A stretch of 64,000 nt of DNA from Prorocentrum cordatum (Eukaryota): positions 1 to 64,000 of the forward strand of contig CAUYUJ010000092.1 in NCBI GenBank assembly GCA_963575745.1. Reading direction: 5' to 3'. Below are positions 6,591 to 49,361 of this stretch, one piece after another (the first letter of the stretch is position 1; each line of letters begins with the position of its first letter). Both the position numbers and the translations under genes were made by a program. Under the pieces are notes generated by a model. That model was not told where the DNA came from. It was given only the letters and a program-made list of their open reading frames with translations, and did no database searches.

Positions 6591-6699
6591 GGGCCTGGGC
6601 CTCCGACCCAGGGCGACGCGCGCGCCCGCGGCAGCGGCCGGCCTCGGCCGCAGCGGGGGCGGGCACGGCGCCATCGCCCACCAGAAGGCCCACCAGCGC

Positions 6700-7794: not shown

Positions 7795-7938
7795 GACTGA
7801 ATGGATCGGAGCGAGGGAGCTCGAACCGCCGCCGCGCTGGCGACGACGGACGGCGACTCCCGACATGGAAACCAGGCTGAACAACCTTGACTGTGTCGGA
7901 CTAGCAGTATCCACGCGTTCCCCTGTGGAACAAAGCAC

Positions 7939-7960
7939 CTTGAGCCAAAATGGCTACGGA
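7939..7960 (-). other. Complete dinoflagellate spliced leader (DinoSL) copy
   Basis: Minus strand reads TCCGTAGCCATTTTGGCTCAAG, an exact match to the consensus DCCGTAGCCATTTTGGCTCAAG. Confidence 0.97.
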
Positions 7961-8385
7961 GCAGGAGGAGGAGGAAGGTGAGAAGACGAGGAGGAGGAGG
8001 AAGAGGAGGAGGAGGAGGAGGAAGAGGAGGAGGATTCGGTTGAAGGAGCCAGGAGGAGGAGGAGGCTGGAGGAGGCCGCCCCCCCACCCCACCCCACCCC
8101 ACCGCACCGCGACGTCCTCCAGCGTGCGCGCGCACTCGGGCGCCGACCCCTCTGAGGCCGCCTCCCCTAAGGACCGTCGCCTCGCCGGCGGACAGCCGCC
8201 GCCGCCGCCGTCGTCGCCGCCGCCTTCGCCGCCGCCGGCATGGATCAAGGCTTCGATGACAGAGGGCTCGAGGACTCGAGGGCTCGAGGGCATAGGTTTG
8301 GGAACTGGTGTCCACAAAGCCTTTGATAGGTCCTACTCTTGTTCTTCTTATCATTATTCCTCCTCCTCCTCCTCCCCCTCGTCCT

Positions 8386-23669: not shown

Positions 23670-24193
23670 TCCCAGGGGACTGGGGGGAACCGCTCCCAGG
23701 GGACTGGGGGAACCGCCCGGGGCGCTTTCCACTGCCCGGCCCCTTTAAGCTAAGAGAGTAAGAACCCTTCTAGGCAGAGCCTAGGTAGGGAAAAAGAGGT
23801 GAAACCGAACCCTATAAAGACGTAAAGCAAGCGGGGGAGACAATAGGAGGAGAAGGGGGAGGATGGGGGAAGAGATTTCCAGGGGTTGGCGGGGGGGTCC
23901 TGGAGAGCTTCGGCAGGCTTCCGCAGAAGGAGTGGGCCAGGGATGGGAGGATTGACGCAGGAGGGAGCACCAGGAAGGGAGGCGGTCCTTAGAAGCAGAA
24001 GAAGAAAGGGAACGGCATGGAGGTCCTGGAGGAGGCGAGGGGACGCGGGAAGCGCCTGCAGCTTGGCAGCCCCAGCGACTGCCACGACGACGACCACGAC
24101 GACGTCCACCACGACGACGACGATGACCATGATACTGTACGACCACGACGGCGGCGCCGCCTCGGCAGAGATGGTCGTCGTCGTTGTCGTCGT

Positions 24194-24245
<52 letters not shown>

Positions 24246-24339
24246 TCCGTGATGGTCCGCGTCGCTGGACGCCGTCGCCGCTGCTGGCCGCCGCCGCTGC
24301 CGAGGCCGCCGCGGCCGCCCTCGCCGGGCATGGGCGCGC

Positions 24340-24434
24340 CTGCAGCCCTGCAGCCGCTCGGCGCCCTCCCGCTGCAGCTGCGCGAGGCGGCCCGTGAGCC
24401 GCTCCTCGCGGCGCCCCAGGCGGTCCTCCGCCGC
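24340..24434 (-). CDS. Putative micro-exon of a host gene (AAEDRLGRREERLTGRLAQLQREGAERLQ)
   Basis: AG|G acceptor, AG|GC donor, GC3-rich codons, helical peptide. Confidence 0.45.
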
Positions 24435-30415: not shown

Positions 30416-30499
<84 letters not shown>

Positions 30500-30674
30500 G
30501 CATCAGCATCAGCATCATCAGCATCAGCATCATCAGCATCATCATCATCACCATCATCAGCATCATCATCATCATTATCATCATCATCATCCTCACCATC
30601 ATCAGCATCATCAGCATCATCCTCATCAGCATCAGCATCAGCATCAGCATCAGCATCAGCATCAGCATCACCAG

Positions 30675-30711
<37 letters not shown>

Positions 30712-32249
30712 GTCATCATCATCATAATCAGCAGCATCATCAGCATTATCAGCATCATCAGTAGCATCAGCAGCAGCATCAGCATCATCAGCATCATCAG
30801 CATCATCATCATAATCATCATCATCCTCATCCTCATCCTCATCATCATCACCAGCATCATCATCATCGCCATCACCATCATCCTCATCCTCATCCTCATC
30901 CTCATCCTCATCTTCATCATTATCATCAGCATCATCATCACCATCATCATCATCATCCTGATCATCATCATTTTCATCCTCATTCTCATCATCCTCATCC
31001 TCATCCTCATCCTCCTCCTCCTCATCATTATCAGCAGCAAAATCATCATCATCAGCATCATCATCATCAACATCATCATCATCATCAGCATCATCATCAT
31101 CGTCAGCATCATCAGCATCAGCATCAGCATCATCATCAGCATTATCAGCATCAGCGTCAGCATCATCATCATCATCATCATCATCAGAAGCACCAGCATC
31201 ATCATCATCGTCGTCATCAGCATCAGCCGCATCATCAGCATCATCAGCATCATCAGCAGCATCATCAGCATCATCAGCAGCATCAGCATCAGCATCAGCA
31301 TCAGCATAATCATCATCATCATCATCATCATCAGCATCAGCATCAGCATCAGAAGCATCATCAGCATCATCATCAGCATCAGCATCAGCATCAGCATCAG
31401 CATCAGCATCAGCATCATCATCGTCAACATTATCATTATCAGCACCATCAGCACCATCAGCATCATCAGCATCAGCATCATCATCATCAGCATCATCAGC
31501 ATCAGCATCAGCGCCAGCATCAGCAGCATCAGCATCAGCATCAGCATCAGCATCATCATCAGCAGCAGCATCATCATCAACAACATAATCAGCATCATCA
31601 GCATCATCATCTGCATCAGCATGAGCATCAGCATCAGCATCAGCATCATCATCATCGTCAGCATCAGCATCAGCATCAACAGCATCAGCATCAGCATCAG
31701 CATCAGCAACATCATCTTCATCCTCATCCTCATCCCCTTCCTCATCATCACAATCATCTTCATCAGCATCATCATAATCAGCAACATCATCAGCATCATC
31801 AGCAGCATGAGCATCAGCATCAGCATCAGCATCATCAGCAGCAACAGCATCTGCATCAGCATCAGCGTCAACATCAGCAACATCATCTCTATCCTCATCC
31901 TCATCCTCATCCTCATCCTCATCACCATCGTCATCCTCGTCGTCATCATCATCATCATCACCAGCAGCAGCAGCAGCGGCATCATCAGCATCATCAGCAG
32001 CATCAGCATCAGCATCAGCATCCTCAGCATCAGCATCAGCATCAGCATCATCAGCATCAGCATCAGCATCAGCATCAGCAACATCATCCTCATCCTCATC
32101 CTCATCCTCATCCTCATCCTCATCCTCATCCTCATCCTTATCAGCAGCAGCAGCAGCAGCATCAGCATCAGAATCAGGATCAGCAGCATCATTAGCATCA
32201 TCAGCAGCATCAGCAGCATCAGCATCAGCATCAGCATCATCAGCATCAG

Positions 32250-32290
<41 letters not shown>

Positions 32291-33114
32291 GCATCGTCGA
32301 CATTATCATCATCAGCATGATCAGCATCCGCATCAGCATCAGCAGCATCAGCATCAGCGTCATCATCATCATCAGCATCATCATCATCATCAGCATCATG
32401 AGCATCAGCACCAGCGTCAGCATCAGCAGCATAACTAAGCATCAGCATCATCATCATCATCCTCATCCTCATCTTCATCATCATCGTCATCAGCATCAGC
32501 ATCATCATATTCAGCAGCATCATCAGCATCATCAGCAGCGTCAGCATCAGTATCAGCATCATAATCATCAGCATCAGCATCAGCATCAGCATCAGCATCA
32601 GCATCAGCAACAACAACTTCATCCTCATCCTAATCCTCATCCTCATCCTCGTCCTCATCATCATCAGAATCAGCATCATCATCATCATCAGCAGCAGCAG
32701 CATCAACATCAGCATCACAGCATCGGCATCCGCATCATCAGCATCAGCATCAGCATCAGCAGCATCATCTTCATCCTCATCCTCATCCTCATCCTCGTCC
32801 TCATCCCCATCTTCATCATCATCCTCATCCTCATCATAATCATCATTATCGTCAGCAGAGTCATCAGCATCAGAAGCATCAGCATCAGCAGCAGCATCAT
32901 CATCAGCATCAGCATCAGCATCAGCATCATCAGCATCAGCATCAACAACATCAACCTCATCCACATCCTCATCCTCATCCGTCAGCCTCATCCTCATCAT
33001 GCTCATCCTCATCCTCATCCTCAGCCTCATCCTCATCATCATCATCATCATCCGCACCCTCATCCTCATACTCATCATCATCCTCATCCGCATCCTCATC
33101 ATCCTCAGCAGGAG

Positions 33115-33149
<35 letters not shown>

Positions 33150-33336
33150 GCATCAGCATCAGCATCAGCAGCATCAGCATCAGCATCAGCATCAGCAACA
33201 TCAGCATCATCAGCATCATCAGCATCAGCATCAGCAGCATCAGCATCAGCAGCATCAGCATCAGCATCAGCATCATCAGCATCATCAGCATCAGCATCAG
33301 CATCAGCATCATCAGCATTAGCATCAGCATCCTCAT

Positions 33337-33367
<31 letters not shown>

Positions 33368-36300
33368 ATCTGCATCAGCATCAGCGTCAGCATCACAAGC
33401 ATCAGCATTTGCATCAGCATTTGCACAGCATCATGATCATCATCATCAGCATCATCATCAATCATCAGTATCATCAGCATCATCATCAGCGTCATCATCA
33501 TCATGATGAGCATCAGCATCAGCATCATCAGCATCAGCATCATCAGCACCATCAGCATCAGCATCATCAGCATCAGCACCAGCAGCATCAGCATCAGCAT
33601 CAGCATCAGCATCAGCATCAACATCACCATCTTCATCCTCATCCTCATCCTCATCCCCATGATCCGCATCCTCATTATCATCAGCAGCATCATCATCAGC
33701 AGCATCAGCATCTGCAGCATCAGCATCAGCATCATCAGCATCAGCATCATCATCATCATCAGCATCGGCATCCTCATCCTCATCCTCATCCTCATCCGCA
33801 TCCTCATCCTCATCCTCATCCTCATCCTCATCCTCATCAGCATCCTCATCCTCATCCTCATCATCATCATCAGCAGCAGCATCAGCATCATCATCATCAT
33901 CAGCAGCATCAGCATCAGCATCAGCATCAGCAGCATCAGCATCATCAGCAGCATCAGCATCAGCATCAGCATCAGCAGCACCATCATCATCAGCATCGGC
34001 ATCAGCAGAATCATCAGCATCATCAGCAGCATCAGCATCACCAGCATCATCAGCAGCATCATCAGCAGCAGCATCAGCATCAGCATCAGCAGCATCAGCA
34101 TCAGCATCAGCATCAGCATCAGAATCATCATCATCAGCATCAACATCATCAACATCAGCATCAGCATCAGCATCCGCAACTTCATCCTCATCCTCATCCT
34201 CATCCTCATCAGCATCCTCATCCTCATCCTCATCATCCTCAGCCTCCTCATCATCATCATCAGCATCATCATCATCCTCATCATAATCATCATCAGCATC
34301 AGCCGCATCATCAGCATCATCAGCATCATCAACAGCATCAGCAGCATTAGCCGCATCATCAGCAGCATCAGCATCAGCATCAGCATCAGCATCATCATCA
34401 GCATCAGCAGCATCAGCAGCATCATCAGCAGCATCAGCATCAGCATCAGCATCAGCAACATCATCCTCATCCTCATCCTCATCCTCATCCTCATCAGCAT
34501 CCTCATCATCATCAGCATCAGCATCATCAGCATCATGATCATCATCATAATCAGCAGCATCATCAGCATCATCAGCATCATCAGCAGCATCAGCAACATC
34601 ATCCTAATCCGCATCCTCATCCTCATCCGCATCCTCATCCTCATCCTCATCCTCATCATCATCCTCATCAGCAGCAGCAGCATCATCATCAGCAGCATCA
34701 GCATCAGCATCAGCATCATCAGCATCATCTTCATCAGCATCAGCATCAGCATCAGCATCAGCATCAGCAGCATCATCAGCATCATCAGCAGCATCAGCAT
34801 CAGCATCATCATCAGCCTCATCATCAGCATCAGCATCAGCAGCAGCATCAGCATCATCAGCAACATCAACATCAGCAGCATCAGCAGTTTCATCAGCATC
34901 AGCATCATCAGCAGCATCATCATCAGCATCAGCATCATCAGCATCAGCATCAGCATCATCAGCATCAGCAGCAGCATCAGCATCAGCAACATCATCCTCA
35001 TCCTCATCATGATCCTCATCCTCATCCTCATCCGCATCGTCATCATCATCCTCATCCTCATCCTCATCCTCATCCTCATCCTCATCATCAGCAGCATCAG
35101 CATCAGCAGCATCATGAGCATGATCAGCATCATGAGCAGCATCAGCAGCAGCATCATCATCATCAGCATCAGCATCAGCATCAGCATCAGCATTCATCAT
35201 CATCATCAGCATCATCAGCATCATCAGCATCACCAGCATCATCAGCATCACCAGCAGCATCAGAATCAGCATCAGCATCAGCAACATCATCTTCATCCTC
35301 ATCCTCATCCTCATCCTCATCCACATCCTCATCACCATCATCATCATCAGCATCATCAGCATCAGCATCAGCATCAGCATCATCATCATCATAATCAGCA
35401 GAAGCATCAACATCCTCAGCAGCATCCGCATCAGCATCATCAGCATCAGCATCAGCATCAGCATCAGCATCATCGACATCAGCATCAGCATCAGCAACAT
35501 CATCGTCAATCCTCATCCTCATCCTCATCCGCATTCTCATCATTATCCTCATCCGCATCCTCATCATCATCATCAGCATCCTCATCAACAGCAGCATCAT
35601 CATCTGCAGCATCAGCATCAGCATCAGCATCAGCAACATCAGCATCAGCACCAGCGTCATCAGCATCATCATCAGCAGCGTCATCAGCAGCATCAGCACC
35701 AGAATCAGCATCAGCATCAGCATCAGCAACATCATCCTCATCCTCATCCGCATCCTCATCCTCATCCTCATCCTCGTCCTCGTCCTCATCCTCATCATCA
35801 GCAGCATCAGCATCATCATCAGCATCAGCATCATCATCAGCACCAGCATCAGCATCAGCATCGGCATCAGCATCAGCATCAGCAACATCATCCTCATCCT
35901 CATCCTCATCCTCATCATCAGCATCATCATCATCATCATCATCATCATCAGCATCAGCATCAGCAGCATCATCAACATCATCAGCATCATCAGCAGCATC
36001 AGCATCAGCATCAGCATCAGCAACACCATCTTCATCTTCATCCTCATCCTCATCCTCATCACCATCAACATCAGCATCATCATTATCATCATCAGCATCA
36101 GCATCATCATCATCAACAGCAGCATCAACATCCTCAGCAGCATCAGCATCAGCATCAGCATCATCAGCATCAGCATCAGCAGCACCGGCATCATCATCAT
36201 CATCATCATCATCATCAGCAGCATCATCTTCATCGTCATCCACATCCGCATCCTCATCCTCATCCTCATCCTCATCATCATCCTCATCATCATCAGCAGC

Positions 36301-36748
36301 AGCATCATCATCATCATCTGCAGCATCAGCATCGGCGTCATCAGCATCAGCATCAGCATCAACATCAGCAACATAATCCTCATCCTCATCCGCATCCTCA
36401 TCCTCATCCTCATCCTCATCGCAAGAATCAGCATCAGCATCAGCATCAGCATCAGCATCAGCAACATCAGCATCAGCATCAGCATCAGCATCAGCATCAG
36501 CAACATCATCCGCATCCTCATCATCATCCTCATCCTCATCCTCATCCTCATCCTCATCATCAGCAGCATCCTCATCATCAGCATCGGCATCCGCATCAGC
36601 ATCAGCATCAGCATCAGCATCCGCATCATCATCCTCATCCTCATCCTCATCTTCATCAGCATCAGCATCAGCATCAGCAGCATCAGCAGCAGCAGCAGCT
36701 TCATCAGCAGCATCAGCTTCATCCACATCCGCATCCTCATCCTCATCC

Positions 36749-36779
<31 letters not shown>

Positions 36780-37049
36780 CATCATCACCACCATCATCAT
36801 CATCAGCAGTATCAGCATCAGCATTATCATCAGCATAATCAGCAGCAGCATCAACATCCTCAGCAGCATCAGCATCATCAGCATCATCTTCATCAGCATC
36901 AGCATCAGCATCATCAGCATCAGCATCAGCAACATCATCGTCATCCTCATCCTCATCCTCATCCGCATCCTGATCCAAATCCGCATCCTCATCATCATCC
37001 TCATCATCATCCTCATCATCATCATCATCATCATCATCAGCAGCATCAG

Positions 37050-37098
<49 letters not shown>

Positions 37099-37659
37099 TG
37101 CAGCATCAGCATCAGCATCAGCAGCATCAGCATCAGCAGCATCAGCATCAGCATCAGCAGCATCAGCAGCAGCAGCAGCATCAGCATCAGCATCAGCAAC
37201 ATCATCCTCATCCTCATCCTCATCCTCATCCTCATCCTCATCCTCATCGCAATCATCAGCACCAGCATCAGCATCAACATCAGCATCATCAGCACCATCA
37301 GCATCAGCATCAGCATCAGCATCAGCATCAACATAAGCAACATCATCCTCATCCTCATCCGCATCCTCATCCTCATCCTCATGCTCATCCTCATCCTCAT
37401 CCTCATCATCAGAAGCATCCTCATCATCAGCATCAGCATCAGCATCAACATCATCAGCAACATCATCATCAGCAGCATCAGCATCAGCGTCAGCATCAGC
37501 AACATCATCCTCATCCTCATCCTCATCCTCATCTTCATCCAGCATCAGCATCAGCGTCAGCGTCATCAGCATCATCAGCAGCGTCCGCATCAGCATCAGC
37601 ATCAGCAACATCATATTCATCCTCATCCTCATCCTCATCCTCATCACCATCACCATCAC

Positions 37660-37694
<35 letters not shown>

Positions 37695-37880
37695 ACAGCA
37701 GCAGCATCAGCATCAGCGTCAGCATCATCATCATCAGCATCAGCAGCATAATCAGCATCATCAGCAGCATCAGCATCATCAGCAGCAGCATCAGCATCAG
37801 CGTCAGCATCATAATCATCAGCATCAGCAGCATAATCAGCATCATCAGCAGCATCAGCATCATCAGCAGCAGCATCATCC
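30350..37880. repeat. ~7.5-kb compound trinucleotide array of (CAT)n, (CATCAG)n and (CATCCT)n
   Basis: Direct reading; source of the poly-M/D/H/I/S pseudo-ORFs. Confidence 0.97.
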
Positions 37881-41434: not shown

Positions 41435-41687
41435 ATGCAATCTTGAACGGACACCCCTCCCAGGGCGTGGGCCCCAAGAGACTCGGAACGGCGTCAGCCT
41501 AACGGAAAAAGACAGCGGGCGTGACGAGGACTTTCATTTCTTTTTACAGCGCCGGAGCTCAGGCCCACGCCTGAGTGCACTTGCGATGGCGGCTGACGGC
41601 AGAGCTGAAACACTGAGAGCCCCTGGCCCACGAGGCCGAGGGGGCTCGAGAAATCTGACAGTCTGGCCAGACCATTAATCAAACCCA
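41435..41687 (-). repeat. Terminal repeat B2 (3' end of the element)
   Basis: Near-identical to 41825-42078; one substitution and one 1-bp indel seen. Confidence 0.95.
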
Positions 41688-41750
41688 AATTCGCAGAAGT
41701 CCAAGCTACTTTGCCTCTCCTCCAGCGTTTCCCTGGGTGGGAAGGGCGGG

Positions 41751-41826
41751 ACGGCAGAAAGGCTTGAGGGGAAGAGGCAGCGGGAGGGGAGAAAGCGAAT
41801 GCACAAGCGATGAGACCAAATGCAAT
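41751..41826 (-). repeat. Internal repeat A2
   Basis: 76-bp copy of 48718-48793; abuts B1, reproducing the end-to-end junction. Confidence 0.95.
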
Positions 41827-42078
41827 GCAATCTTGAACGGACACCCCTCCCAGGGCGTGGGTCCCAAGAGACTCGGAACGGCGTCAGCCTAACGGAAAAA
41901 GACAGCGGGCGTGACGAGGACTTTCATTTCTTTTTACAGGCGCCGGAGCTCAGGCCCACGCCTGAGTGCACTTGCGATGGCGGCTGACGGCAGAGCTGAA
42001 ACACTGAGAGCCCCTGGCCCACGAGGCCGAGGGGGCTCGAGAAATCTGACAGTCTGGCCAGACCATTAATCAAACCCA
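41825..42078 (-). repeat. Internal repeat B1
   Basis: Copy of 41435-41687. Confidence 0.95.
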
Positions 42079-42161
42079 TATCAAACGCTGGAGTAAATCC
42101 CGTATCGACTCCATTGGCATGCCGAGGGAACACTGCAGCAGGCTGAGCGCAAAGAGGCACA

Positions 42162-43157
42162 TTACGAGAGGAAGGACAACTGCAAGGCCTCAGCACGCTT
42201 AGCCTCTGCCTTCACAGCGGCCGAGAGGCGTCTGAAGGATGCAAGAGCACGGCCGCTCTTCTGATAGCGCTGCACAGAACGGAAGCTCGACCACCTGCCA
42301 CGAGACTGAATGTCGGCCAGCGAGCGGGCGCCTCTGAGGTAGTCCTCCGACGGACCGCCGTGCCGAGGGAGGTGGGCTGTCACCTTGGTCGGGAGGCCGA
42401 CGGCGACGGCGGCCTTCTTGAGCAAGCGGTTGTACGAAGCGTACGAGTGGAGGAACATGAGGCGCCCTTGGAGGGCTTGGTTGGCGCTCTTGACGAGGGC
42501 CATGAGCGCGCCAGCCACACCCGCACGAGACTGGCCATCGATGAGCACGGTGTCGTCCTGGAGGCCAGTCTTGGTGACGCGCGTGTGCACGTCGTCGCCC
42601 ATGACCAGCGCGGAGGCGCCGACGACGAGCCCCATCTTGTTGTACCCTGAGCCGGCACTCGGCTGCGGCAGGATGCAGCAGGGCACGCGGAGGTCCAGCA
42701 GCTCACCAGGGCGCAAGTACGTGTCAAACTGCACCACCAGGCCGCGGGCGGCCTGCAGGGCAATCTCCGTGTTGAGGCCGGCCAGGTACAGAGCCATCAA
42801 GCACGCTGCCGCCCAGCAGAGCGGCTCCGAGGTGACGTCCGGCTCGAGCTTGCCCCAGCCGGCGAGGGCGCCCTTCGCCTTCGGGAAGACGCCTGGGGCA
42901 CGAAGCGACACGCTGAAACGGTAGGCCAAGGCGGCCAAGGTGTAGCGGGCCGTGCTCTTGCTGCCGCCGTCGACGTAGAGCTGCTCGAAGTACTCCTCAA
43001 GGAGCGTGTCCACCAGGGGGAGGTCATTGCTCACCCAGCGGTCGGCGACAACGCCCATGGCCGTGGCGAACACGGCGACGCTGGCGAGGTAGCGGGCCTG
43101 AGTGGCCGGCCGCACCTGCGAGCGCCGCAGGAAGCCCGGCGAGGAGTCAGCGGGCAC
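42162..43157 (-). CDS. Tyrosine recombinase (~330 aa; start uncertain)
   Basis: Catalytic set YLRPGE (R), TKTG (K), HLPRHGG (HxxR), GRW (W), VQRY (Y); N-terminal helical region TQARY...LEEYFEQLY; C-terminal part of track ORF 42162-49286. Confidence 0.93.
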   Translation of the reverse strand: MPADSSPGFLRRSQVRPATQARYLASVAVFATAMGVVADRWVSNDLPLVDTLLEEYFEQLYVDGGSKSTARYTLAALAYRFSVSLRAPGVFPKAKGALAGWGKLEPDVTSEPLCWAAACLMALYLAGLNTEIALQAARGLVVQFDTYLRPGELLDLRVPCCILPQPSAGSGYNKMGLVVGASALVMGDDVHTRVTKTGLQDDTVLIDGQSRAGVAGALMALVKSANQALQGRLMFLHSYASYNRLLKKAAVAVGLPTKVTAHLPRHGGPSEDYLRGARSLADIQSRGRWSSFRSVQRYQKSGRALASFRRLSAAVKAEAKRAEALQLSFLS

Positions 43158-46100
43158 CTGGCGGGCCCGGGCAGCCGACGCCCGGCCTCTGCCGAGGCTT
43201 CGGCCTTGCCCGCGGCCGCGGGAGGCCGACGAAGCGGCCCCAGCCCTCGGCGTCGGGCGGCCAGAGCGCGACCCACTTCCGCGGGCAGCTGGGGCACTCG
43301 AGGGACGGCTGGACGTCGCCCATCTTGGCTGCACGGCGGAGCTGAGCCTCCCAGTGACCGGGCAGCAGTGGATCCCCATCTGGTCGCCAGGCTCCAGCGG
43401 GCGCCGCGCGCGCCAAGGCCCGGGCGGCGCTGTGGCAGACACCAGGAGGGTAGGCGCCAGCCAGGGTCGTGCGCCAGAACTGTTTGAGCCGACCCTGGCG
43501 ATCACGGACCTTGACCTTCCCCTGAAGATGCTCGTGGGCATGACCTCCAAGACAACGCCTTTCAAGGATACCGAGCTCGGGGAGGTCAGACTCAATCCTG
43601 GTGGGCTTCTGGTACGGGGCTCCAAACTGACAGCAGTCATACACCACGGAGACCTTGCTATGCTCGGACAGGAACTTCTGGAGAGGCTCCCAAGAGAAGA
43701 GCCGGGATCCCCGGGGGTTCTCGAGGGACCACCTGACGCCGAACTGAACGCACAACCGAAGTAGACGAAGAGTGACATGAGCACACCGCCGACCGGCGCG
43801 TATAGCAGACGTATCATTGGCCCCACGGCGAGCAACTGACCACGGAGTGCACGGAGTCCCGAAGTGCACGAACCAGACCTTGCGAGAGACGATCCACTGG
43901 CGAACGACGGTCTCGATGCTGGGCCGAAGCAGGTCGCCCCAACCCCCGAACTTGATGTCGATCGGAGCCGCGACAGCCAGACCGAGCTGCGCGAGAGCCC
44001 CCGTCCAGCGAGCCCCCCCCGAGAAGATCTCGAGAGCCGCCCGACGTCCACGAAGCCGAGGTACAGGAACACGAGCCGGCTCGACCGCGACGAACGGCGT
44101 GGGCGGAGGGGGCAGCAGCCCGGGAGGCTCTGTCGTCCATTTTCGGCCAGGCCGGGCATGCAAACGAAGGCTCCCGAGGGCAGGCGGCCCGCGCGGCGCG
44201 CTCCCGGCGCGCGTGCGCGGCCCGGAGCGGCCAAGACGTGGCGGGGCCCGCTCAGAAGAGAGCAGCCGAGGCCCCGGCACGAGTCTCCGTCCAACTCGTC
44301 CGAGGGCCCCAGCAGGCCGCGGCGCAGGCACTGGCCGCGGCCGTGGGCGGCGCCCGCGTGGGCAGGCCGCCGGCGGCGACAGGTCGCGGGCCCCCTCGGC
44401 CTCGTCGAACGTCGCCTTGCGTGCAGGGTGGCCAGGGGCGCCGGCCGCGGGCCCCTCCTGTGGCCGTGGGGAGCGCCGCGGCCCGCAGCGGCCAGCAGCT
44501 CCAGAAGCCCGCGGCGGCGGCCGCGGCGGGCAGGTCTGAAGTCGGCCGCCGCGCAGCCGCGCCGCGGGGGGAGGCTCGCAAGCCTCCTCGGAGACTGGCC
44601 AGCTGGCGGTCGCCGAGGGCGCCGGCGGGGCCGGCGTCGGGGGCGCCGACGGCGGGCAGCCCGCGGGCAGAGCCGGCCTGTCCGACCTGCCGCCAACCCG
44701 CCGCTGCCCTGGGCGGTAGACGCCCTGCAGCGCCTTCCTCGACCCCGCGTCACAGAGGTTGCGGTCCGTGTCGAGGTGTCGGCGCCGCCAGGAGATCCCA
44801 CAGGCGATCTGGTAGGCGGCGGCCCTCCGGCACAGACAGGCGAGGCCGAGGTCCACGGCTCGCCCCTTCTCGATGGAGAGGAGCTCCGACATGTTGTCGC
44901 CCAGGCTGAGCACGCGGGACCCGTGGCAGTCGACCTGCCGGGCGGCGTGCCGCAGGCCCCCCAGGGCGATGCGGCCCTCCAGCAGGTGAATGGGGGCCCC
45001 GCGGCGCCAGGCGCCCTCCACGATGAGAGACCAGTCCCTGGGATCGACGAGGCTGTCGGGCACGGAGACGCCAGCAGGTCGCACAGTGGGCCTGAGACGA
45101 CCCTTGAGTACGCCTCGGGCGCCCTCCCTCGAGCGCGTCGGCGGGGGGGCCCAGACGGCCACGCCTGTAGCGCCCGGCGGCTCCCCCAGCACTCCTCCAG
45201 CGCCCGGCACCCAGCCCGGGGAGAAGGTGTCGTCGAGCGCCGCGTCGGGCCGCTTCTCGTCGGGGACGAACCTCCACCTCTCCCGGGTAGCAGCCAGCTG
45301 CCGAAGGAGTCGCACGTCAGCGCGTCGGCGGTGGAGAGCGTAGCCCGCCTCGGACGAGTCGGAGCACAAAACCAGGGAGGACATCGGCCGGTCCAAGAAG
45401 ACGACGGCCTGGAAGATGAGGCCCCTGAAGAGCTGGATCTCCCGGCGGGCCCCAGCAGACAGAGCGACTGGGGGCCCCTGGCCCTGCGCGTCCACGAAGC
45501 GGTAGAGCAGGCGGAAGATCGAGAGGGCCGGCCGCAGCAGCAGGCAGTGCTGCACACAGTGCCCGAGGAACACTCGGATCTGCCAGGCCGCGCGCGGAAC
45601 CCCAGGGCGCTCGAGCTCCTGACAGGCCAAGTAGAGGCGCCAGGCTCGGTGATCGGAATGACGCAGACGCCTCCGCCTCCCGTCGTACTCGACGCCGACG
45701 GTGGTGAAGTGCGTGGCCGGGCCCTCGACCTCGTGGTACGCGATGCCGAGCGAGTCGAGCTTGTCCTTCGCGGCCTGCAACGCCTGCCCGACGTCGTCGC
45801 TCGAAAGGCCCAGGAACGAGACGTTGTCCACGTAGACCGACCCTGTGGGGCGGAAGGGTGCCGCGACGGGAGCCGGCTGCTTGTCGAGCAGCAGGCGTCG
45901 GGCACCCCCCGGCAGCGTGTCAGAGACCCAGGACGTGACGGACGAGTGCACGGCCCAGAGTGCCCATGACCACCCCATCGGCACCCCGCGGAAGACCGGG
46001 AAGACGAGCTCGTCGGGGTCGACAGGGGACAGGCCGTCGGGCGTCCAGATGTGGGAGACCTGGTAGTAGGAGGCCCGCTCAGGGAAGTCCATCCCGAAAT

Positions 46101-47019
46101 CCTCCGCGACGCGCTCCGAGAAGAACTGGTAGAACGAGTCCTGGAGGTCGAGGGACGACCCGAAGATCTGAGCGGGGGAGCCATCAGCACTAACCCATCC
46201 AGCGTCCGAGAGCGCAGCATCGGACCAGTCCTGCTCGCTGAGGGCAGCCGGGGTCCCGAGGGCGGCATGCGGCGGCGCCCAGTGGGTGCGGTTGGTGTCG
46301 CGAGCGTCGACGACCAGGCGGATCCAGCCGCCCTTCTTCTCGACGAAGAAACACCCCACACGTGACCTGATTCGCCTCTGGAAGCCGACCAGCCCCCGCC
46401 CCGCGAGCCTGAGAAGGAAGTCCCGCCGAAGGCTGGCGTCGCTGGCAAGCCGCGCGTCCCAGTACGGCTTGATCGGCGGCAGGAGCTCGAGGTCCTGCTC
46501 CACCACGCGGTCCGGCTTGCGGATGTAGGCGTCGGGGTCGCGGAAGGCGTCGACGACGAACTTGGGGCAGACCTCCTCCACGTCTCGAGGCGTGACCGAG
46601 GACTGCCAGAACTTGAGCTTGGACTCTTCGTACGGGACGACCTTGGACGGCGCGCCTCCGTAGAGCGAGTCGGACTTGAGGAGCTCCTGAAGGGCTCCGC
46701 GAGGGTGGAGACCTGCCGGGCGAGGGCCATACTCCGCCACGCAGCGGCCGAGCTGCCGGCCACACGAGGACGAGGTCGCCGCACCCGCAGTCCCTGAATC
46801 GGCAGCGCCACCTGGCCCGCGGCCACGATGGCGCACCGTGCAGGCGGCGAGACAGTTGATCGAATGTACTGCCTCACGAACACGGTGTTCACGTGAGCGT
46901 CGCTGGAGCACCCGCTGGCGCAGGTACCGCGGCGCCCCGCTGAGGTCGACCGGCGGCGCAGGCCCCGGGACCGAAAGCGGCAGCGGGCCCCCGTGCGAGG
47001 AGCGTGATCCCGATGCCAT
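43147..47019 (-). CDS. Pol polyprotein: reverse transcriptase, RNase H and C-terminal cytosine-5 methyltransferase (frame open to 47151; first ATG at 47019)
   Basis: RT: FFVEKK..IRLVVDAR, LDLQDSFYQ, PMGWSWA, YVDN. RNase H: SDSS, HLLE, GDN, NLCD. MTase: LEIFSG, GTPC, ENP, KPT, AYP. Confidence 0.93.
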   Translation of the reverse strand: MASGSRSSHGGPLPLSVPGPAPPVDLSGAPRYLRQRVLQRRSREHRVREAVHSINCLAACTVRHRGRGPGGAADSGTAGAATSSSCGRQLGRCVAEYGPRPAGLHPRGALQELLKSDSLYGGAPSKVVPYEESKLKFWQSSVTPRDVEEVCPKFVVDAFRDPDAYIRKPDRVVEQDLELLPPIKPYWDARLASDASLRRDFLLRLAGRGLVGFQRRIRSRVGCFFVEKKGGWIRLVVDARDTNRTHWAPPHAALGTPAALSEQDWSDAALSDAGWVSADGSPAQIFGSSLDLQDSFYQFFSERVAEDFGMDFPERASYYQVSHIWTPDGLSPVDPDELVFPVFRGVPMGWSWALWAVHSSVTSWVSDTLPGGARRLLLDKQPAPVAAPFRPTGSVYVDNVSFLGLSSDDVGQALQAAKDKLDSLGIAYHEVEGPATHFTTVGVEYDGRRRRLRHSDHRAWRLYLACQELERPGVPRAAWQIRVFLGHCVQHCLLLRPALSIFRLLYRFVDAQGQGPPVALSAGARREIQLFRGLIFQAVVFLDRPMSSLVLCSDSSEAGYALHRRRADVRLLRQLAATRERWRFVPDEKRPDAALDDTFSPGWVPGAGGVLGEPPGATGVAVWAPPPTRSREGARGVLKGRLRPTVRPAGVSVPDSLVDPRDWSLIVEGAWRRGAPIHLLEGRIALGGLRHAARQVDCHGSRVLSLGDNMSELLSIEKGRAVDLGLACLCRRAAAYQIACGISWRRRHLDTDRNLCDAGSRKALQGVYRPGQRRVGGRSDRPALPAGCPPSAPPTPAPPAPSATASWPVSEEACEPPPAARLRGGRLQTCPPRPPPRASGAAGRCGPRRSPRPQEGPAAGAPGHPARKATFDEAEGARDLSPPAACPRGRRPRPRPVPAPRPAGALGRVGRRLVPGPRLLSSERAPPRLGRSGPRTRAGSAPRGPPALGSLRLHARPGRKWTTEPPGLLPPPPTPFVAVEPARVPVPRLRGRRAALEIFSGGARWTGALAQLGLAVAAPIDIKFGGWGDLLRPSIETVVRQWIVSRKVWFVHFGTPCTPWSVARRGANDTSAIRAGRRCAHVTLRLLRLCVQFGVRWSLENPRGSRLFSWEPLQKFLSEHSKVSVVYDCCQFGAPYQKPTRIESDLPELGILERRCLGGHAHEHLQGKVKVRDRQGRLKQFWRTTLAGAYPPGVCHSAARALARAAPAGAWRPDGDPLLPGHWEAQLRRAAKMGDVQPSLECPSCPRKWVALWPPDAEGWGRFVGLPRPRARPKPRQRPGVGCPGPPGAR
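43400..44040 (-). other. DNA cytosine-5 methyltransferase domain within Pol
   Basis: Motif I LEIFSGG, motif II-like PIDI, motif IV FGTPC (catalytic Cys), motif VI SLENP, FGAPYQKPT, motif X-like AGAYP. Confidence 0.88.
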
Positions 47020-47125
47020 GGGGAGGACGAGGAGGCGGCCGCGGCGGAGGAACCCGCGGCGGCAGCCAGGCAGGGCGGGGCGCCGCAGGACGCCCAGCCC
47101 AAGAAGGGGGCCGCCCGGCCCCCTG

Positions 47126-48250
47126 CTACTTGCCAGCGTCGGCCCCGCCACCCTTCGGCCCCTTCGGGGGCGCCTTGGGCTGCGCGGCCGTCCTCTCCTC
47201 CTGCCACTGCCGATTCGCCTTCATGGTCTGGGCGCGGGCACGCGCCTGGTCGCCAACCCATCCGTCGAACTCCGGCAGCACCATGCCGCCCGTGTCGTCG
47301 ACCCCCGTGTCGAGGATGAGGTCGAGCCCCTCGAAGTCGGGGGCCCGAGGGTTCTTGCGGGTCGCCGACTCCAGCTGCTTGAGCCGCCTGACGAGATACT
47401 CCGCGCCCGCAATGTTGAACAGGTCGAGCTGATCGAACTGCTGCATCATCCGAAAAGACACGCAGATCATGTGGTGCTCCCGGGCGACGTTGCCGCGCTC
47501 GGCCACTCCGCTGCGGCGGAGCCACGTGGTGTGGTGCTCCTCCCAGTTGCCCTGACCACCGTCTCGAAGGGAAAGCACAGCCTCCCTCGTCGCACGGCGG
47601 CCCTGCAGAGGCCAGCCCGGTATCGTCGCCTCCTTCATGCGGCGAACCGAGTCCCGGAAGTCGATGTACCTGCCTCCATCCTGGTCCCTCTCGTCGCCCA
47701 CGACGCGCGGGCCCCGGCCCGCGCCCCCGCGAGCTCGGGCGAGGTACGTGTCGAAGTTCTGGCCCTCGCTCACCTTGATCGCGTGGACCCAGACGTCGTC
47801 GAGCCGTACGAGCCCAACATCCCCACGCCGCACCAGGACCTCCTCGTTGGCGAGGACCTGCGGCGGCACCTCCTCGCCGAAGTGCGACGAGGTGGGGTCG
47901 CTCACGTACCACTTGTCCCCGGGGAGGCCCACGACGCCGGCGAGGTCGAACCCGAGGATCGTCCCCAGGGCCCTGGCCTCCTCGAGGTAGCCCTGCATGT
48001 CCTCCGCCGCCACTTCGTCGAAGGCGTAGATGTTGCCAGCATGCCGCGCTGGGAAGGGGCCCGACCGCCGGAGGGCCAGCACTCGGAACGTGGCCAGGTC
48101 GACGAAGGCCACCTCCCCATCCGGCGTGAGCCAGATCCACTTCTGGGCATCTCCCTTCACCAGCAGCACACGGTGATGCCACTGGAAGTTCTCGTCGTCC
48201 TCGTACCTGACGAGGCACTGGCTGAACGGGGTGTCCAGCGCACGGGCCAT
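47126..48250 (-). CDS. Gag-like/structural ORF, 374 aa
   Basis: Intact, protein-like ORF with GCCGCCATGG start context, directly upstream of pol; no CCHC knuckle seen, so function is inferred from position only. Confidence 0.75.
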   Translation of the reverse strand: MARALDTPFSQCLVRYEDDENFQWHHRVLLVKGDAQKWIWLTPDGEVAFVDLATFRVLALRRSGPFPARHAGNIYAFDEVAAEDMQGYLEEARALGTILGFDLAGVVGLPGDKWYVSDPTSSHFGEEVPPQVLANEEVLVRRGDVGLVRLDDVWVHAIKVSEGQNFDTYLARARGGAGRGPRVVGDERDQDGGRYIDFRDSVRRMKEATIPGWPLQGRRATREAVLSLRDGGQGNWEEHHTTWLRRSGVAERGNVAREHHMICVSFRMMQQFDQLDLFNIAGAEYLVRRLKQLESATRKNPRAPDFEGLDLILDTGVDDTGGMVLPEFDGWVGDQARARAQTMKANRQWQEERTAAQPKAPPKGPKGGGADAGK

Positions 48251-48258
48251 GGCGGCCC

Positions 48259-48708
48259 TCAGTCAGCACGAGCACCAGGAGCCCGACGGCCACGCCCGAG
48301 ACCCGACGGCGTCGCCACGTGCGTGCCGCCGGCGTCGTCCTCGACGGCGAGGGCGCGCGCTCGCGCCGCCGGCCGTCCAGGCGAGCCCGCCGCCAGCCAA
48401 CCCGCGGTCGCCAGCCCAGCGCCAAGGGCCACGCCCACCACGGCCGCGCCGCAGAGGTCGAGCCCCGTGTAGTGCCCAGGCGGGAGCGGGCACGGAGGGC
48501 AGGGCTGGCACGCGACCCCCTGCAGGTGCTCCGGGCCGCAGCGTGCCAGCTGCTCCCGGAGGATGGCCACCAGGCCGTCGGTCGTGTCCGAGCCCTCGAA
48601 CACGCAGCGGCAGGAGACCTCGGCGATCCCGCTGCGGCCAGGTCCAGTCCAGCGCTCGGAGAGCGCGCCGAGAACCCACCCGCCTGCAGCGTGCACCCAG
48701 GCGGCCAT
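48259..48708 (-). CDS. Small Cys-rich predicted transmembrane protein (149 aa), first ORF of the YR element
   Basis: ATG just inside repeat A1; stop 8 bp before the gag ATG; CRC...C...CQPCPPCP, hydrophobic LCGAAVVGVALGAGLATAGWLAA, Arg-rich tail. Confidence 0.6.
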   Translation of the reverse strand: MAAWVHAAGGWVLGALSERWTGPGRSGIAEVSCRCVFEGSDTTDGLVAILREQLARCGPEHLQGVACQPCPPCPLPPGHYTGLDLCGAAVVGVALGAGLATAGWLAAGSPGRPAARARALAVEDDAGGTHVATPSGLGRGRRAPGARAD

Positions 48709-48717
48709 GAACTGTTC

Positions 48718-48790
48718 ACGGCAGAAAGGCTTGAGGGGAAGAGGCAGCGGGAGGGGAGAAAGCGAATGCACAAGCGATGAGACCAAATGC

Positions 48791-48793
<3 letters not shown>
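48718..48793 (-). repeat. Terminal repeat A1 (5' end of the element)
   Basis: Matches 41751-41826. Confidence 0.95.
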
Positions 48794-48885
<92 letters not shown>

Positions 48886-48901
48886 CCATCACCACCATCA
48901 C

Positions 48902-48943
<42 letters not shown>

Positions 48944-49361
48944 AATCCCCCACCTCCCACCTCCCTCCTACCCTTCTCCCCGTCTCCCGAGGGAGTGAGA
49001 GCGGGGAGGAGGGTGGTAGGGGGATGAAGGGGACGAGGGGGAGAGGGAGGAGGAGGTAGGCAGGAGCAGGAGGTGGAGGAGAAAGAGCAGGGAGGGGGGA
49101 GGATGAGGATGAGGATGAAGATGCTGAAGATGATGAAGATGATGGAGACGATGAGAGTGATGAGAGTGATGAGGATGACGAGGATGAGGAGGATGGTGAT
49201 GATGGTGAGGATGATGAGGATGATGAGGCTGATGAGGATGAGGATGATGAGGATGAGGAGGATGAGGAGGATGATGATGACGACATTGATGATGATACTG
49301 CTGATGTTGATGGTGATGATGACGATGCTGATGAACACGATGATGATGATGATGATGATGA

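What the first reader, a model, noticed from the sequence alone, without database searches (positions are those of the whole stretch)
48259..48708. Extra small Cys-rich transmembrane ORF upstream of gag: possible membrane/egress or fusogen-like accessory protein
Seen: a 149-aa ORF filling the space between repeat A1 and gag, with Cys clusters (CRC, CGP, CQPCPPCP), a ~22-aa GxxxG-rich hydrophobic segment and an Arg-rich tail. Known: DIRS-order elements are not classically env-bearing, and a small ectodomain plus TM plus polybasic tail is the layout of reovirus FAST fusogens. Inference (speculative): it anchors particles to membranes or aids cell-to-cell spread.
Basis: partly seen in the sequence, partly recalled or inferred. 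Interest (0 to 1): 0.7.

Follow-up and report, generated by a model that had tools for sequence, protein, structure and literature searches.

The report
Conserved membrane-protein gene in dinoflagellate retroelement
The small open reading frame is a real, conserved gene for a single-pass membrane protein that sits just ahead of the gag-position gene in a family of dinoflagellate retrotransposons, a class of mobile element not known to carry such a gene.

Summary
The 149-codon ORF exists exactly as described, on the minus strand (48708->48259). It is the first gene of a 7.36-kb A-coding-B-A-B, tyrosine-recombinase-type retroelement inserted in an (ATC)n microsatellite. Being open proves nothing, because at about 78% GC three frames are open across it. 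Comparison with relatives settles it. A family of 24 aligned relatives (19-84% identity) all keep an invariant QLxRCGP motif, flanking cysteines and a hydrophobic helix. The motif codons vary synonymously. dN/dS is 0.38-0.40 in one diverged pair, and that is the only stop-free frame of six. All 4 metagenomic relatives of the downstream gene that have upstream sequence carry such an ORF ending 0-8 nt before, or overlapping, the gag-position ATG. Named relatives come from Prorocentrum cordatum and Polarella glacialis. No Pfam or PDB match was found, and the AlphaFold model is poor. The function is inferred only. I favour a membrane-docking accessory with a luminal Cys-rich knob, a Gly-rich TM helix and a cytosolic Arg tail. 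A FAST/sORF2-like transfer or fusion protein is the main rival. Several FAST hallmarks are not met: the ectodomain is too long and acylation motifs are missing. No expression data were obtained.

The parts
48718..48793 (-). Repeat A1: 76-nt 5' terminal repeat of the element, ending 9 nt before the ORF's ATG and abutting the (ATC)n flank
   Evidence: 100% identical to 41751-41826. Contigs from other runs that carry this 76-mer continue on both sides into the X and B sequences seen at 41691-41750 and 41827 onward (table 7).
48259..48708 (-). The 149-codon ORF (P0001), including its TGA stop at 48259-48261; first cistron of the element
   Evidence: Homologues. dN/dS and frame tests on relatives. 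14 of 21 listed copy-to-copy differences fall at codon position 3 (counted by hand; p=0.0018).
48646..48702 (-). N-terminal hydrophobic/amphipathic segment (residues 3-21): could be a signal peptide, a signal anchor or a hydrophobic patch; not resolved
   Evidence: Helix 3-21 in the low-confidence AF2 model. The 15-residue hydropathy peak is 0.5-2.1 across the 14 A5 members (the two lowest values, 0.52 and 0.53, belong to P0006 and P0007, whose predicted N-termini are about 24 residues longer). A7, A8 and L16 are nearly invariant in A2.
48523..48564 (-). Core motif ILREQLARCGPEHL (residues 49-62), with invariant Q53 L54 R56 C57 G58 P59
   Evidence: Invariant in 24 of 24 aligned members. Four DNA copies use different synonymous codons at L, R, C, G and P.
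48490..48510 (-). Membrane-proximal CxxCxxC (C67, C70, C73)
   Evidence: C70 is nearly invariant in A5. CPPC or CxxC is seen in most members.
48385..48465 (-). Gly-rich transmembrane helix (residues 82-108; hydropathy peak at 85-103)
   Evidence: The AF2 helix 82-108 is the best-scored part of the model (block pLDDT up to 84). KD is 1.82. G96 is nearly invariant. Family-wide KD is 1.56-2.59, median 2.01.
48262..48384 (-). Arg-containing C-terminal tail (residues 109-149), predicted cytosolic
   Evidence: The flank after the TM is more basic than the flank before it in 20 of 24 members and equal in 3. R142 is nearly invariant. The tail evolves faster (dN/dS 0.75) than the N-terminal part (0.26) in the L003/L006 pair.
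47126..48250 (-). Gag-position ORF (374 codons). Its ATG lies 8 nt after the small ORF's stop, in a GCCGCCATGG context
   Evidence: 1742 representative proteins match at E<=0.001. The AF2 model has pLDDT 86.5. No capsid fold was found; the best match is a Tudor/SH3-like barrel, Z 5.6, over residues 9-60.
43147..47019 (-). Pol-position ORF (1290 codons)
   Evidence: No Pfam or PDB sequence match. Relatives in P. cordatum and Polarella glacialis join the gag-like part to long pol-like proteins.
42162..43400 (-). Tyrosine-recombinase-position ORF (approximate 5' limit)
   Evidence: Only a weak Phage_integrase hit: E=0.039, 14.2 bits against a cut-off of 27.1.
41437..42081 (-). 3' repeat block: B1 (41827-42081), A2 (41751-41826), X (41691-41750), B2 (41437-41690), abutting (ATC)n
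   Evidence: The B copies are 98.8% identical over 257 nt. Sequence read.

Best explanation
SHOWN: The ORF is a real, selectively maintained gene. It is the first cistron of a 7.36-kb retroelement (41437-48793, minus strand) with the A-coding-B-A-B repeat layout of DIRS-like elements, inserted in an (ATC)n array. Its closest named relatives are in the dinoflagellates Prorocentrum cordatum and Polarella glacialis. It belongs to an unannotated family of 111-276-residue predicted proteins with one architecture: an N-terminal hydrophobic segment, a Cys-containing segment around an invariant QLxRCGP motif, usually a CxxC next to the membrane, one Gly-rich hydrophobic helix, and a tail with Arg. Wherever the context could be seen, it lies directly 5' of the gag-position ORF. 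INFERRED (about 0.35 for this mechanism): the protein is inserted into the ER or nuclear-envelope membrane system with the Cys-rich knob in the lumen or outside (disulfide-stabilised; a sequon follows CGP in 15 of 24 members) and the basic tail in the cytosol. It self-associates through its small-xxx-small TM helix and serves as the element's membrane docking site, where the gag-position protein and RNA assemble and are trafficked. The gag-position ORF is translated from the same RNA by leaky scanning or termination-reinitiation. This is suggested by the 0-8 nt stop-to-ATG spacing, the few or no intervening ATGs, and a gag frame that is closed 0-18 nt upstream of its ATG. Confidence that it is a real membrane-protein gene of the element is about 0.85-0.9. 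The overall figure below is lower because the mechanism is inferred.
For: Family: 6 hits with the single protein, 11 with profile A1 and 21 with profile A5. In the 24-sequence alignment A6, Q53 L54 R56 C57 G58 P59 are invariant and C33, L50, G96 and R142 are nearly so, at 19-84% identity to the window protein. QL.RCGP is present in 24 of 24. A 19-residue hydropathy peak of 1.56-2.59 lies 17-31 residues after CGP; the flank after it is more basic in 20 of 24 and equal in 3 (one row, P0187, was anchored on an earlier CGP). Protein-level selection: synonymous codon differences occur at 5 of the 6 invariant residues across four DNA copies. L003 vs L006 gives dN/dS 0.375, with 30 of 122 synonymous vs 38 of 364 non-synonymous sites changed (Fisher p=2.4e-4). 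This frame is the only one of six without stops and has the lowest ratio (0.40 against 0.53-1.59). The ratio is 0.26 up to the TM end and 0.75 in the tail. Near copies of the window element: 14 of 21 listed differences are at codon position 3 (gag: 16 of 17). Both altered stop codons remain stops. Each 1-nt insertion has a 1-nt deletion 4-6 nt away. One 663-nt contig bridges the ORF and the gag start at 95% identity. Position: of 6 metagenomic loci found with the gag alignment, 4 have at least 298 nt upstream, and all 4 carry an upstream ORF with a TM segment. Three of these have the RCGP motif; the fourth is 5'-truncated. The ORFs end 8, 8 and 0 nt before the gag ATG, or overlap it. P0018 (P. 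cordatum) joins an ORF149-like N-terminus to gag. ATGs between the two starts: window 0 (2.1 expected), L005 0 (5.6 expected, P=0.004), L003 3 (6.3), L006 2 (6.1). The gag frame is closed 0-18 nt upstream and no slippery heptamer is present.
Against: There is no direct evidence that the protein is made. Topology, oligomerisation and any contact with the gag-position protein are all inferred. The AF2 model is poor (pLDDT 54.4). The tail, the supposed docking surface, is the least constrained part (dN/dS 0.75). The strictly invariant motif lies on the predicted luminal or outer side, which a plain tether does not obviously need. No retroelement is known to me (recall) to use a dedicated small TM protein purely for intracellular docking. 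The only published precedent for a small TM ORF upstream of gag (sORF2, PMC11952523) is a cell-to-cell transfer factor. The gag-position protein showed no capsid-like fold, so 'gag' is by position only. The dN/dS rests on one pair of sequences. The codon-position count rests on the 40 of 224 difference rows that displayed, mostly from one contig.
Confidence: 0.45

Rival explanations
1. FAST/sORF2-like transfer protein. The protein sits in the plasma membrane with N-terminus out and C-terminus in, and uses its N-terminal hydrophobic patch, cystine-constrained ectodomain, Gly-rich TM and juxtamembrane basic residues to bring two cell membranes together. This would let particles pass between cells, for example at gamete fusion or cell contact.
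For: It is a small TM ORF in the sense orientation directly upstream of gag, as for sORF2 of Drosophila MDG1-group elements and smORF2 of nackednaviruses (PMC11952523, passages read). Its size of 111-276 residues overlaps the FAST range of about 100-200. It has an ectodomain hydrophobic segment plus cysteines, a TM helix with glycines, and basic residues after the TM, which are features listed for p10-type FAST proteins (PMC12945298, passages and reference titles read). An invariant outward-facing motif fits a role that engages something outside the cytosol.
Against: The pre-TM part is 54-108 residues, against an ectodomain that is 'rather constant at around 30' in sORF2/FAST proteins. An MGxxxS/T start occurs in 1 of 24. 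The window protein has no endodomain dicysteine and only 3 Arg in the 15 residues after the TM. There is no sequence or fold link. The named hosts are unicellular, so cell-to-cell passage is not needed for copy-number gain. Even sORF2 itself has not been shown to fuse cells in reporter assays (limitations section).
Confidence: 0.2
2. Viroporin-type channel. The Gly-rich helix oligomerises into a pore that alters ion balance or membrane permeability of an internal compartment during the element's cycle.
For: It is a single short TM helix with G92xxxG96 and nearly invariant G96, and it is a small bitopic protein with a basic cytosolic tail.
Against: The strongest conservation is outside the helix, in QLxRCGP. 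No polar pore-lining residue is conserved in the helix. No oligomer prediction was run.
Confidence: 0.08
3. Membrane anchor of Gag. The ORF is joined to the gag-position protein by read-through or frameshifting, giving a TM-Gag fusion.
For: Gene models P0018, P0091 and P0096 join a TM-bearing N-terminus to the gag-like part. In L005 the two ORFs are in one frame, separated only by TAA. In the window, L003 and L006, gag is in the -1 frame.
Against: The gag frame is closed 0-18 nt upstream of its ATG, and no X_XXY_YYZ heptamer lies in the overlap. Most gag relatives start at their own Met: in the top 150, only 5 have an N-terminal extension of 119 residues or more. The fused models may be annotation artefacts of degenerate copies, since P0018 lacks the motif region.
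Confidence: 0.07
4. Not a protein-coding gene. It is a chance ORF in GC-rich 5' leader sequence whose conservation reflects a cis-acting RNA or DNA signal, or an overlapping antisense frame.
For: Three frames are fully open over the interval. The plus-strand frame 47018..48472 shares wobble positions with it over 48259-48472 (my arithmetic). No RNA holder was available.
Against: Invariant residues are encoded by varying synonymous codons. It is the only stop-free frame in the 57-59% GC relatives L003 and L006, and it has the lowest dN/dS of six frames. Hydrophobicity of the helix is kept while its sequence diverges. ORF lengths and start/stop placement are kept across subfamilies.
Confidence: 0.05

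Closest known systems
sORF2 of Drosophila MDG1-group LTR retrotransposons (412, Mdg1, Stalker), and sORF2/FAST-like ORFs of insect Metaviridae and nackednavirus smORF2 (Voichek et al. 2025 preprint, PMC11952523; abstract and passages read)
   Same: A small single-TM accessory ORF in the sense orientation, upstream of gag, within the element's main transcript unit. A basic stretch follows the TM. The primary sequence is too divergent for homology searches.
   Different: The element class is unrelated (tyrosine-recombinase/DIRS-like, not Ty3/gypsy), and the host is a protist, not an animal. The protein is longer (111-276 vs 63-107 residues) and its pre-TM part is 54-108 residues vs about 30. It has a Cys-rich segment with an invariant QLxRCGP motif. 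The N-myristoylation motif is essentially absent (1 of 24). No sequence or fold relationship was found.
Reovirus FAST proteins, p10 type (features as summarised in PMC12945298; passages read)
   Same: An ectodomain-TM-endodomain layout in a 100-200-residue protein. It has ectodomain cysteines plus a hydrophobic segment, glycines in the TM, and membrane-proximal basic residues.
   Different: There is no 11-residue cystine-noose spacing, and no palmoylatable dicysteine after the TM in the window protein. The ectodomain is much longer. It is encoded by a retroelement, not a dsRNA virus. Fusogenic activity is untested.
SymbioDIRS-Dnmt3 elements of Symbiodinium (de Mendoza et al. 2018, PMC5890265; passages read)
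   Same: A dinoflagellate element with A-coding-B-A-B repeats, a pol too divergent for Pfam RT models, and a separate recombinase ORF. [quoted passage not shown]
   Different: The passages I read do not mention a small TM ORF or a gag ORF ('transmembrane' 0 hits, 'gag' 0 hits). Here a DNMT domain was not confirmed by any tool; there is only an eye-read resemblance to recalled motifs. The hosts here are Prorocentrum or Polarella-like, not Symbiodinium.
Envelope genes of retroviruses and errantiviruses
   Same: A membrane protein encoded by a reverse-transcribing element, with CxxC-type cysteines on the presumed outer side.
   Different: It is about ten times smaller and has no SU/TM organisation, heptad repeats or fusion-peptide architecture. 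It is located 5' of gag rather than 3' of pol. It is not a member.

Membership tests
FAST / sORF2-like small fusogens | Small size (about 60-200 residues) with one central TM helix | tested here: met
   The window protein has 149 residues; family members have 111-276. One TM-grade hydropathy peak follows the motif in 24 of 24. An additional N-terminal hydrophobic segment is present.
FAST / sORF2-like small fusogens | N-out/C-in topology without a cleaved signal peptide | not testable with these tools
   The positive-inside count favours a cytosolic C-tail (20 of 24). No signal-peptide or topology predictor, and no experiment, was available.
FAST / sORF2-like small fusogens | Short ectodomain (about 30 residues in sORF2/FAST) | tested here: not met
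   The pre-TM length is 54-108 residues and 84 in the window protein. It would still be about 60 if the N-terminal segment were cleaved.
FAST / sORF2-like small fusogens | Acylation: N-terminal MGxxxS/T myristoylation, or a palmitoylated juxtamembrane dicysteine in the endodomain | tested here: not met
   An MG start occurs in 1 of 24 (P0202). The window protein has no Cys after residue 86. Some relatives have a single Cys after the TM.
FAST / sORF2-like small fusogens | Juxtamembrane polybasic cluster in the endodomain | tested here: inconclusive
   There are 0-5 Arg/Lys in the 15 residues after the TM, and 3 in the window protein. The flank is basic but not a dense cluster.
FAST / sORF2-like small fusogens | Induces cell-cell fusion or capsid transfer | not testable with these tools
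   This needs a syncytium or transfer assay.
DIRS-like (tyrosine-recombinase) retroelements, split-direct-repeat type | A1-coding-B1-A2-B2 terminal repeat arrangement | tested here: met
   A is 76 nt at 100% identity and B is 257 nt at 98.8%, in the order A1 ... B1 A2 (X) B2. The layout matches the legend quoted.
DIRS-like (tyrosine-recombinase) retroelements, split-direct-repeat type | Tyrosine recombinase instead of a DDE integrase | tested here: inconclusive
   Phage_integrase matches at E=0.039 and 14.2 bits, below the 27.1 cut-off.
DIRS-like (tyrosine-recombinase) retroelements, split-direct-repeat type | Reverse transcriptase / RNase H in pol | tested here: inconclusive
   No Pfam or PDB sequence match for the 1290-residue ORF. 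A YVDN string is seen by eye. PMC5890265 states that Symbiodinium DIRS RTs align poorly to Pfam seeds.
Retroviral/errantiviral Env | A large SU-TM glycoprotein with fusion peptide and heptad repeats, encoded 3' of pol | tested here: not met
   The protein has 149 residues with one predicted helix before the TM, and it is located 5' of gag.

The most novel reading that the evidence does not exclude
A tyrosine-recombinase retroelement of unicellular dinoflagellates carries its own miniature fusogen or transfer protein, analogous to FAST/sORF2. The element would then be infectious between cells, or would promote cell fusion in a protist population. That would make it a DIRS-type 'virus-like' agent and a selfish driver of cell-cell fusion, using a new fusion module built on the invariant QLxRCGP Cys-rich knob.
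Probability: 0.15. Interest if true: 0.9.

Novelty: new variant of a known kind. Interest (0 to 1): 0.66.

Why it matters
DIRS-like elements are described as carrying gag, pol (RT/RNase H, sometimes a methyltransferase) and a tyrosine recombinase, with no membrane protein. This work finds a conserved, unannotated membrane-protein family as a regular first gene of a widespread dinoflagellate lineage of such elements. The downstream gene alone has 1742 representative relatives at E<=0.001. Together with the recent sORF2 work in insects, it suggests that small TM accessory proteins upstream of gag arose repeatedly in unrelated reverse-transcribing elements. It also gives a concrete, testable candidate for how retroelements deal with membranes in the dinoflagellate cell, or move between cells. 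The five literature searches I ran listed no paper describing such an ORF in tyrosine-recombinase elements. For most of the listed papers I read only the listing; passages were read in six: PMC5890265, PMC11952523, PMC12945298, PMC10449503, PMC11453091 and the 2026 bioRxiv preprint 10.64898/2026.05.21.726589.

Tried and rejected
- Own-genome search: no genome is held for this window.
- Pfam: nothing for the ORF. Of 24 family members, only one gave a weak PSI hit, E=0.0031.
- PDB profile search with A5: only TM-driven chance rows, E>=0.38.
- ESM Atlas: no usable hit.
- AlphaFold2 on the 14-sequence alignment: pLDDT 54.4. This is too poor for a fold search, so none was run on that model.
- Complex prediction of the ORF protein with the gag-position protein: no verdict (score 0.00, controls not folded). 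This says nothing either way.
- Loci searches with the ORF family profile: none confirmed in metagenome contigs (160 pattern matches) or in viral contigs (46 pattern matches).
- The 27-sequence gag alignment was too diverse for the locus search. A 6-sequence alignment worked.
- Sequencing runs: no RNA holder listed among 14 runs. Only DNA-type contigs were laid, so nothing can be said on expression, transcript ends or spliced-leader addition.
- Gag-position model: Foldseek against PDB found nothing at E<=0.001. The wide VIA search gave at best Z 5.6, a Tudor/SH3-like barrel over residues 9-60. No capsid fold was shown, and this is not evidence of absence.
- Pol ORF against PDB sequences: no hit.
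- Frameshift fusion to gag: considered and disfavoured.
- Earlier findings of the scan: nothing by place, sequence or words.
A host origin of the module therefore remains open.
Full report
**1. What is at the coordinates**

A 149-codon ATG-to-TGA ORF lies at 48259..48708 on the minus strand. Its product, P0001, has these features:
- Cys at residues 33, 35, 57, 67, 70, 73 and 86.
- A hydrophobic Gly-rich stretch: the best 19-residue Kyte-Doolittle window scores 1.82 at residues 85-103.
- A 41-residue tail with seven Arg.

The ORF being open is no evidence, however. The segment between the two start codons is 78% GC, three frames are open across the whole interval, and two more are partly open.

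**2. Context**

Read on the minus strand, the ORF is the first gene of one retroelement. The order of parts is:
- An (ATC)n flank.
- Repeat A1, 48793-48718 (76 nt, 100% identical to 41826-41751).
- The small ORF.
- The 374-codon gag-position ORF (48250-47126), which starts 8 nt after the small ORF's stop.
- A 1290-codon pol-position ORF (47019-43147).
- A recombinase-position ORF ending at 42162.
- B1 (42081-41827), A2, a 60-nt spacer X, and B2 (41690-41437).
- (ATC)n again.

This is the A-coding-B-A-B layout quoted for SymbioDIRS elements (PMC5890265, passages read). The element is 7357 bp long and sits inside a trinucleotide microsatellite. The window holds only one copy.

Pfam recognises none of the ORFs, apart from a sub-threshold Phage_integrase hit at E=0.039. 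The same paper notes that dinoflagellate DIRS reverse transcriptases fit Pfam seeds poorly. The assignment to DIRS-like elements therefore rests on the repeat layout and gene order, not on domain hits.

**3. Host**

No genome is held for the window. Named relatives of the two 5' genes come from Prorocentrum cordatum and Polarella glacialis. One hit carries a EukProt label for Pyramimonas sp. CCMP1952. By recall, that data set is a transcriptome, so the hit might be a contaminant transcript. I could not check this. The window is most likely dinoflagellate DNA.

**4. Is the ORF a gene?**

Homologues:
- A search with P0001 gave 6 proteins at 95-43% identity.
- Profile searches gave 11 proteins and then 21. 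Most come from short ENA or JGI contigs.

In a 24-sequence alignment, with members at 19-84% identity to P0001, Q53 L54 R56 C57 G58 P59 are invariant, and C33, L50, G96 and R142 are nearly so. All 24 members carry QLxRCGP. All 24 have a TM-grade hydropathy peak (1.56-2.59, median 2.01) 17-31 residues after the CGP. The flank after the helix is more basic than the flank before it in 20 of 24 and equal in 3. One row, P0187, was mis-anchored by my script.

The helix sequence diverges while its hydrophobicity is kept, which points to constraint on a protein.

At the DNA level:
- The four copies I could read (window, L003, L005, L006) use different synonymous codons for L, R, C, G and P of the invariant motif. 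The motif is therefore not a nucleotide signal.
- For the diverged pair L003/L006 (57-59% GC in the ORF), dN/dS is 0.375 (Fisher p=2.4e-4), against 0.09 for the adjacent gag part.
- Of the six frames, this one alone has no stops and has the lowest ratio.
- Constraint is concentrated up to the end of the TM helix (0.26) and is weak in the tail (0.75).

For near copies of the window element, contigs from four public runs were laid on the window:
- Of the difference rows displayed (40 of 224), 21 fall in the ORF body, and 14 of these are at codon position 3 (p=0.0018). For gag, 16 of 17 are at position 3 (positions counted by hand).
- The two variant stop codons remain stops.
- Two contigs carry a 1-nt insertion, and each has a 1-nt deletion 4-6 nt away.
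- A 663-nt contig at 95% identity bridges the ORF and the gag start.

**5. Is it a regular part of the element family?**

The gag-position protein has 1742 representative relatives at E<=0.001. A locus search with a gag alignment found 6 metagenomic loci. Two of them have under 55 nt of upstream sequence and are uninformative.

All 4 remaining loci carry an upstream ORF with a TM segment:

| Locus | Upstream ORF | Motif / TM | Position relative to gag ATG |
|---|---|---|---|
| L003 | 163 codons | LLERQLQRCGPENQTCPPC | stop 8 nt before |
| L006 | 162 codons | same motif | stop 8 nt before |
| L005 | 203 codons | VRSQLERCGPPNLSC | stop abuts the ATG |
| L002 | 5'-truncated | strong TM | overlaps the gag start |

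These come, and their gag parts are only 36-43% identical to the window's.

A P. cordatum gene model (P0018) joins an ORF149-like N-terminus to gag. Of the five top-150 gag relatives with N-terminal extensions of 119 residues or more, four have a hydrophobic segment (KD >=1.76) 42-92 residues before the gag part, though none has the RCGP motif. These are gene models and may be artefacts.

**6. How the two genes are probably expressed (inference)**

- The gag frame is closed 0-18 nt upstream of its ATG, and no slippery heptamer is present. A frameshift fusion is therefore unlikely.
- ATGs between the two start codons are scarce: window 0 (2.1 expected), L005 0 (5.6 expected, P=0.004), L003 3 (6.3), L006 2 (6.1). 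No internal in-frame Met occurs.
- The window's gag ATG has a GCCGCCATGG context.
- The conserved 0-8 nt spacing, together with these points, fits leaky scanning or termination-reinitiation on one RNA.
- Separate spliced-leader trans-spliced mRNAs are also possible in a dinoflagellate (general knowledge). I have no RNA data to decide between these.

**7. What the protein looks like**

AlphaFold2 with 14 sequences gave only a low-confidence model (pLDDT 54.4). It has helices at residues 3-21, 44-56 (the LREQLAR part), 59-62 and 82-108. I found no Pfam, PDB or Atlas relative.

The features are:
- An N-terminal hydrophobic segment in every member. It could be a signal peptide, a signal anchor or a hydrophobic patch.
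- Cysteines before and after the motif.
- An N-x-S/T sequon right after CGP in 15 of 24 members. Twelve of these are in one subfamily.
- A positive-inside bias.

Together these suggest that the Cys-rich knob faces the lumen or exterior and the tail faces the cytosol. This is inference.

**8. Function**

I commit to a membrane-docking role (about 0.35). In this reading the protein inserts in the ER or nuclear-envelope system, self-associates through its small-xxx-small helix, and gives the gag-position protein and RNA a membrane platform.

The main rival (about 0.2) is a transfer or fusion role like sORF2 of Drosophila MDG1-group elements and reovirus FAST proteins. sORF2 is the only published precedent for a small TM ORF upstream of gag (PMC11952523, abstract and passages; PMC12945298, passages).

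Against membership in that group:
- The pre-TM part is 54-108 residues, not about 30.
- The myristoylation start occurs in 1 of 24.
- The window protein lacks an endodomain dicysteine, and its basic flank is modest.

Against my own preferred reading:
- The tail is the least constrained part.
- The invariant motif lies on the far side of the membrane.

A viroporin role, a TM-Gag fusion and a non-coding explanation are less likely; they are set out under the rival explanations. A complex prediction of the two proteins returned no verdict and is not counted either way.

**9. The neighbouring 'gag'**

Its model is confident (pLDDT 86.5): a beta-rich N-terminal half and a helical C-terminal half. 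Foldseek found nothing at E<=0.001. The wide structural search gave at best a Tudor/SH3-like barrel (Z 5.6, rmsd 1.9, 50 residues, model residues 9-60). 'Gag' is therefore a positional name only.

**10. Novelty and limits**

The kind, a small TM accessory ORF 5' of gag in a reverse-transcribing element, has a recent precedent. New here are the element class (tyrosine-recombinase type), the host group (dinoflagellates) and the protein module (QLxRCGP Cys-rich knob). The papers I searched listed nothing on it, and the two dinoflagellate/DIRS methyltransferase papers contain no 'transmembrane' hit.

Limits:
- Everything is computational.
- No expression evidence was obtainable.
- The selection tests rest on one pair of sequences and on a partial list of contig differences.
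- A cellular origin of the module was not searched in longer proteins.
- Supplementary figures of PMC5890265, which draw the element structures, were not seen and might show an unlabelled 5' ORF.

Noticed in passing
window 30416-37879: A 7.4-kb hexanucleotide/trinucleotide array (TCATCA)n with about 1243 copies at 82% matches. Similar (ATC)n and (TCC)n arrays flank the element; the element's two ends (41437 and 48793) both abut (ATC)n, so it looks inserted into such a microsatellite.
   Followed up: partly
window 43147-44100 (C-terminal part of the pol-position ORF): The strings FGTPCTPWS and ENPRGS resemble, by recall, motifs IV and VI of C5 cytosine methyltransferases. The Polarella relative P0113 has the same strings. 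Pfam and PDB sequence searches gave no methyltransferase hit, so a SymbioDIRS-Dnmt3-like DNMT domain is possible but unconfirmed.
   Followed up: partly
window 47126-48250 (gag-position ORF): The confident AF2 model has an N-terminal small beta-barrel that resembles Tudor/SH3-like domains (Z 5.6) instead of a retroviral capsid fold. The family has 1742 representative relatives and no Pfam model.
   Followed up: partly
L003 614-659, L006 539-584 and relatives P0188-P0201: One subfamily keeps a C-terminal motif (RRRxRPxVPLAILSADQ[VI]RDL) that ends 8 nt before the gag ATG. It could be a protein motif or an RNA signal for reinitiation.
   Followed up: no
window 42162-49286, minus strand: A single 2374-codon frame stays open across the whole element and into the flanking repeat. 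This shows how little ORF length means in this GC-rich, stop-poor DNA.
   Followed up: no
window 2001-8000 and 23781-25226: Other blocks of 70-74% GC hold long ORFs (359-530 codons) with no Pfam match. They show no similarity to this element.
   Followed up: partly
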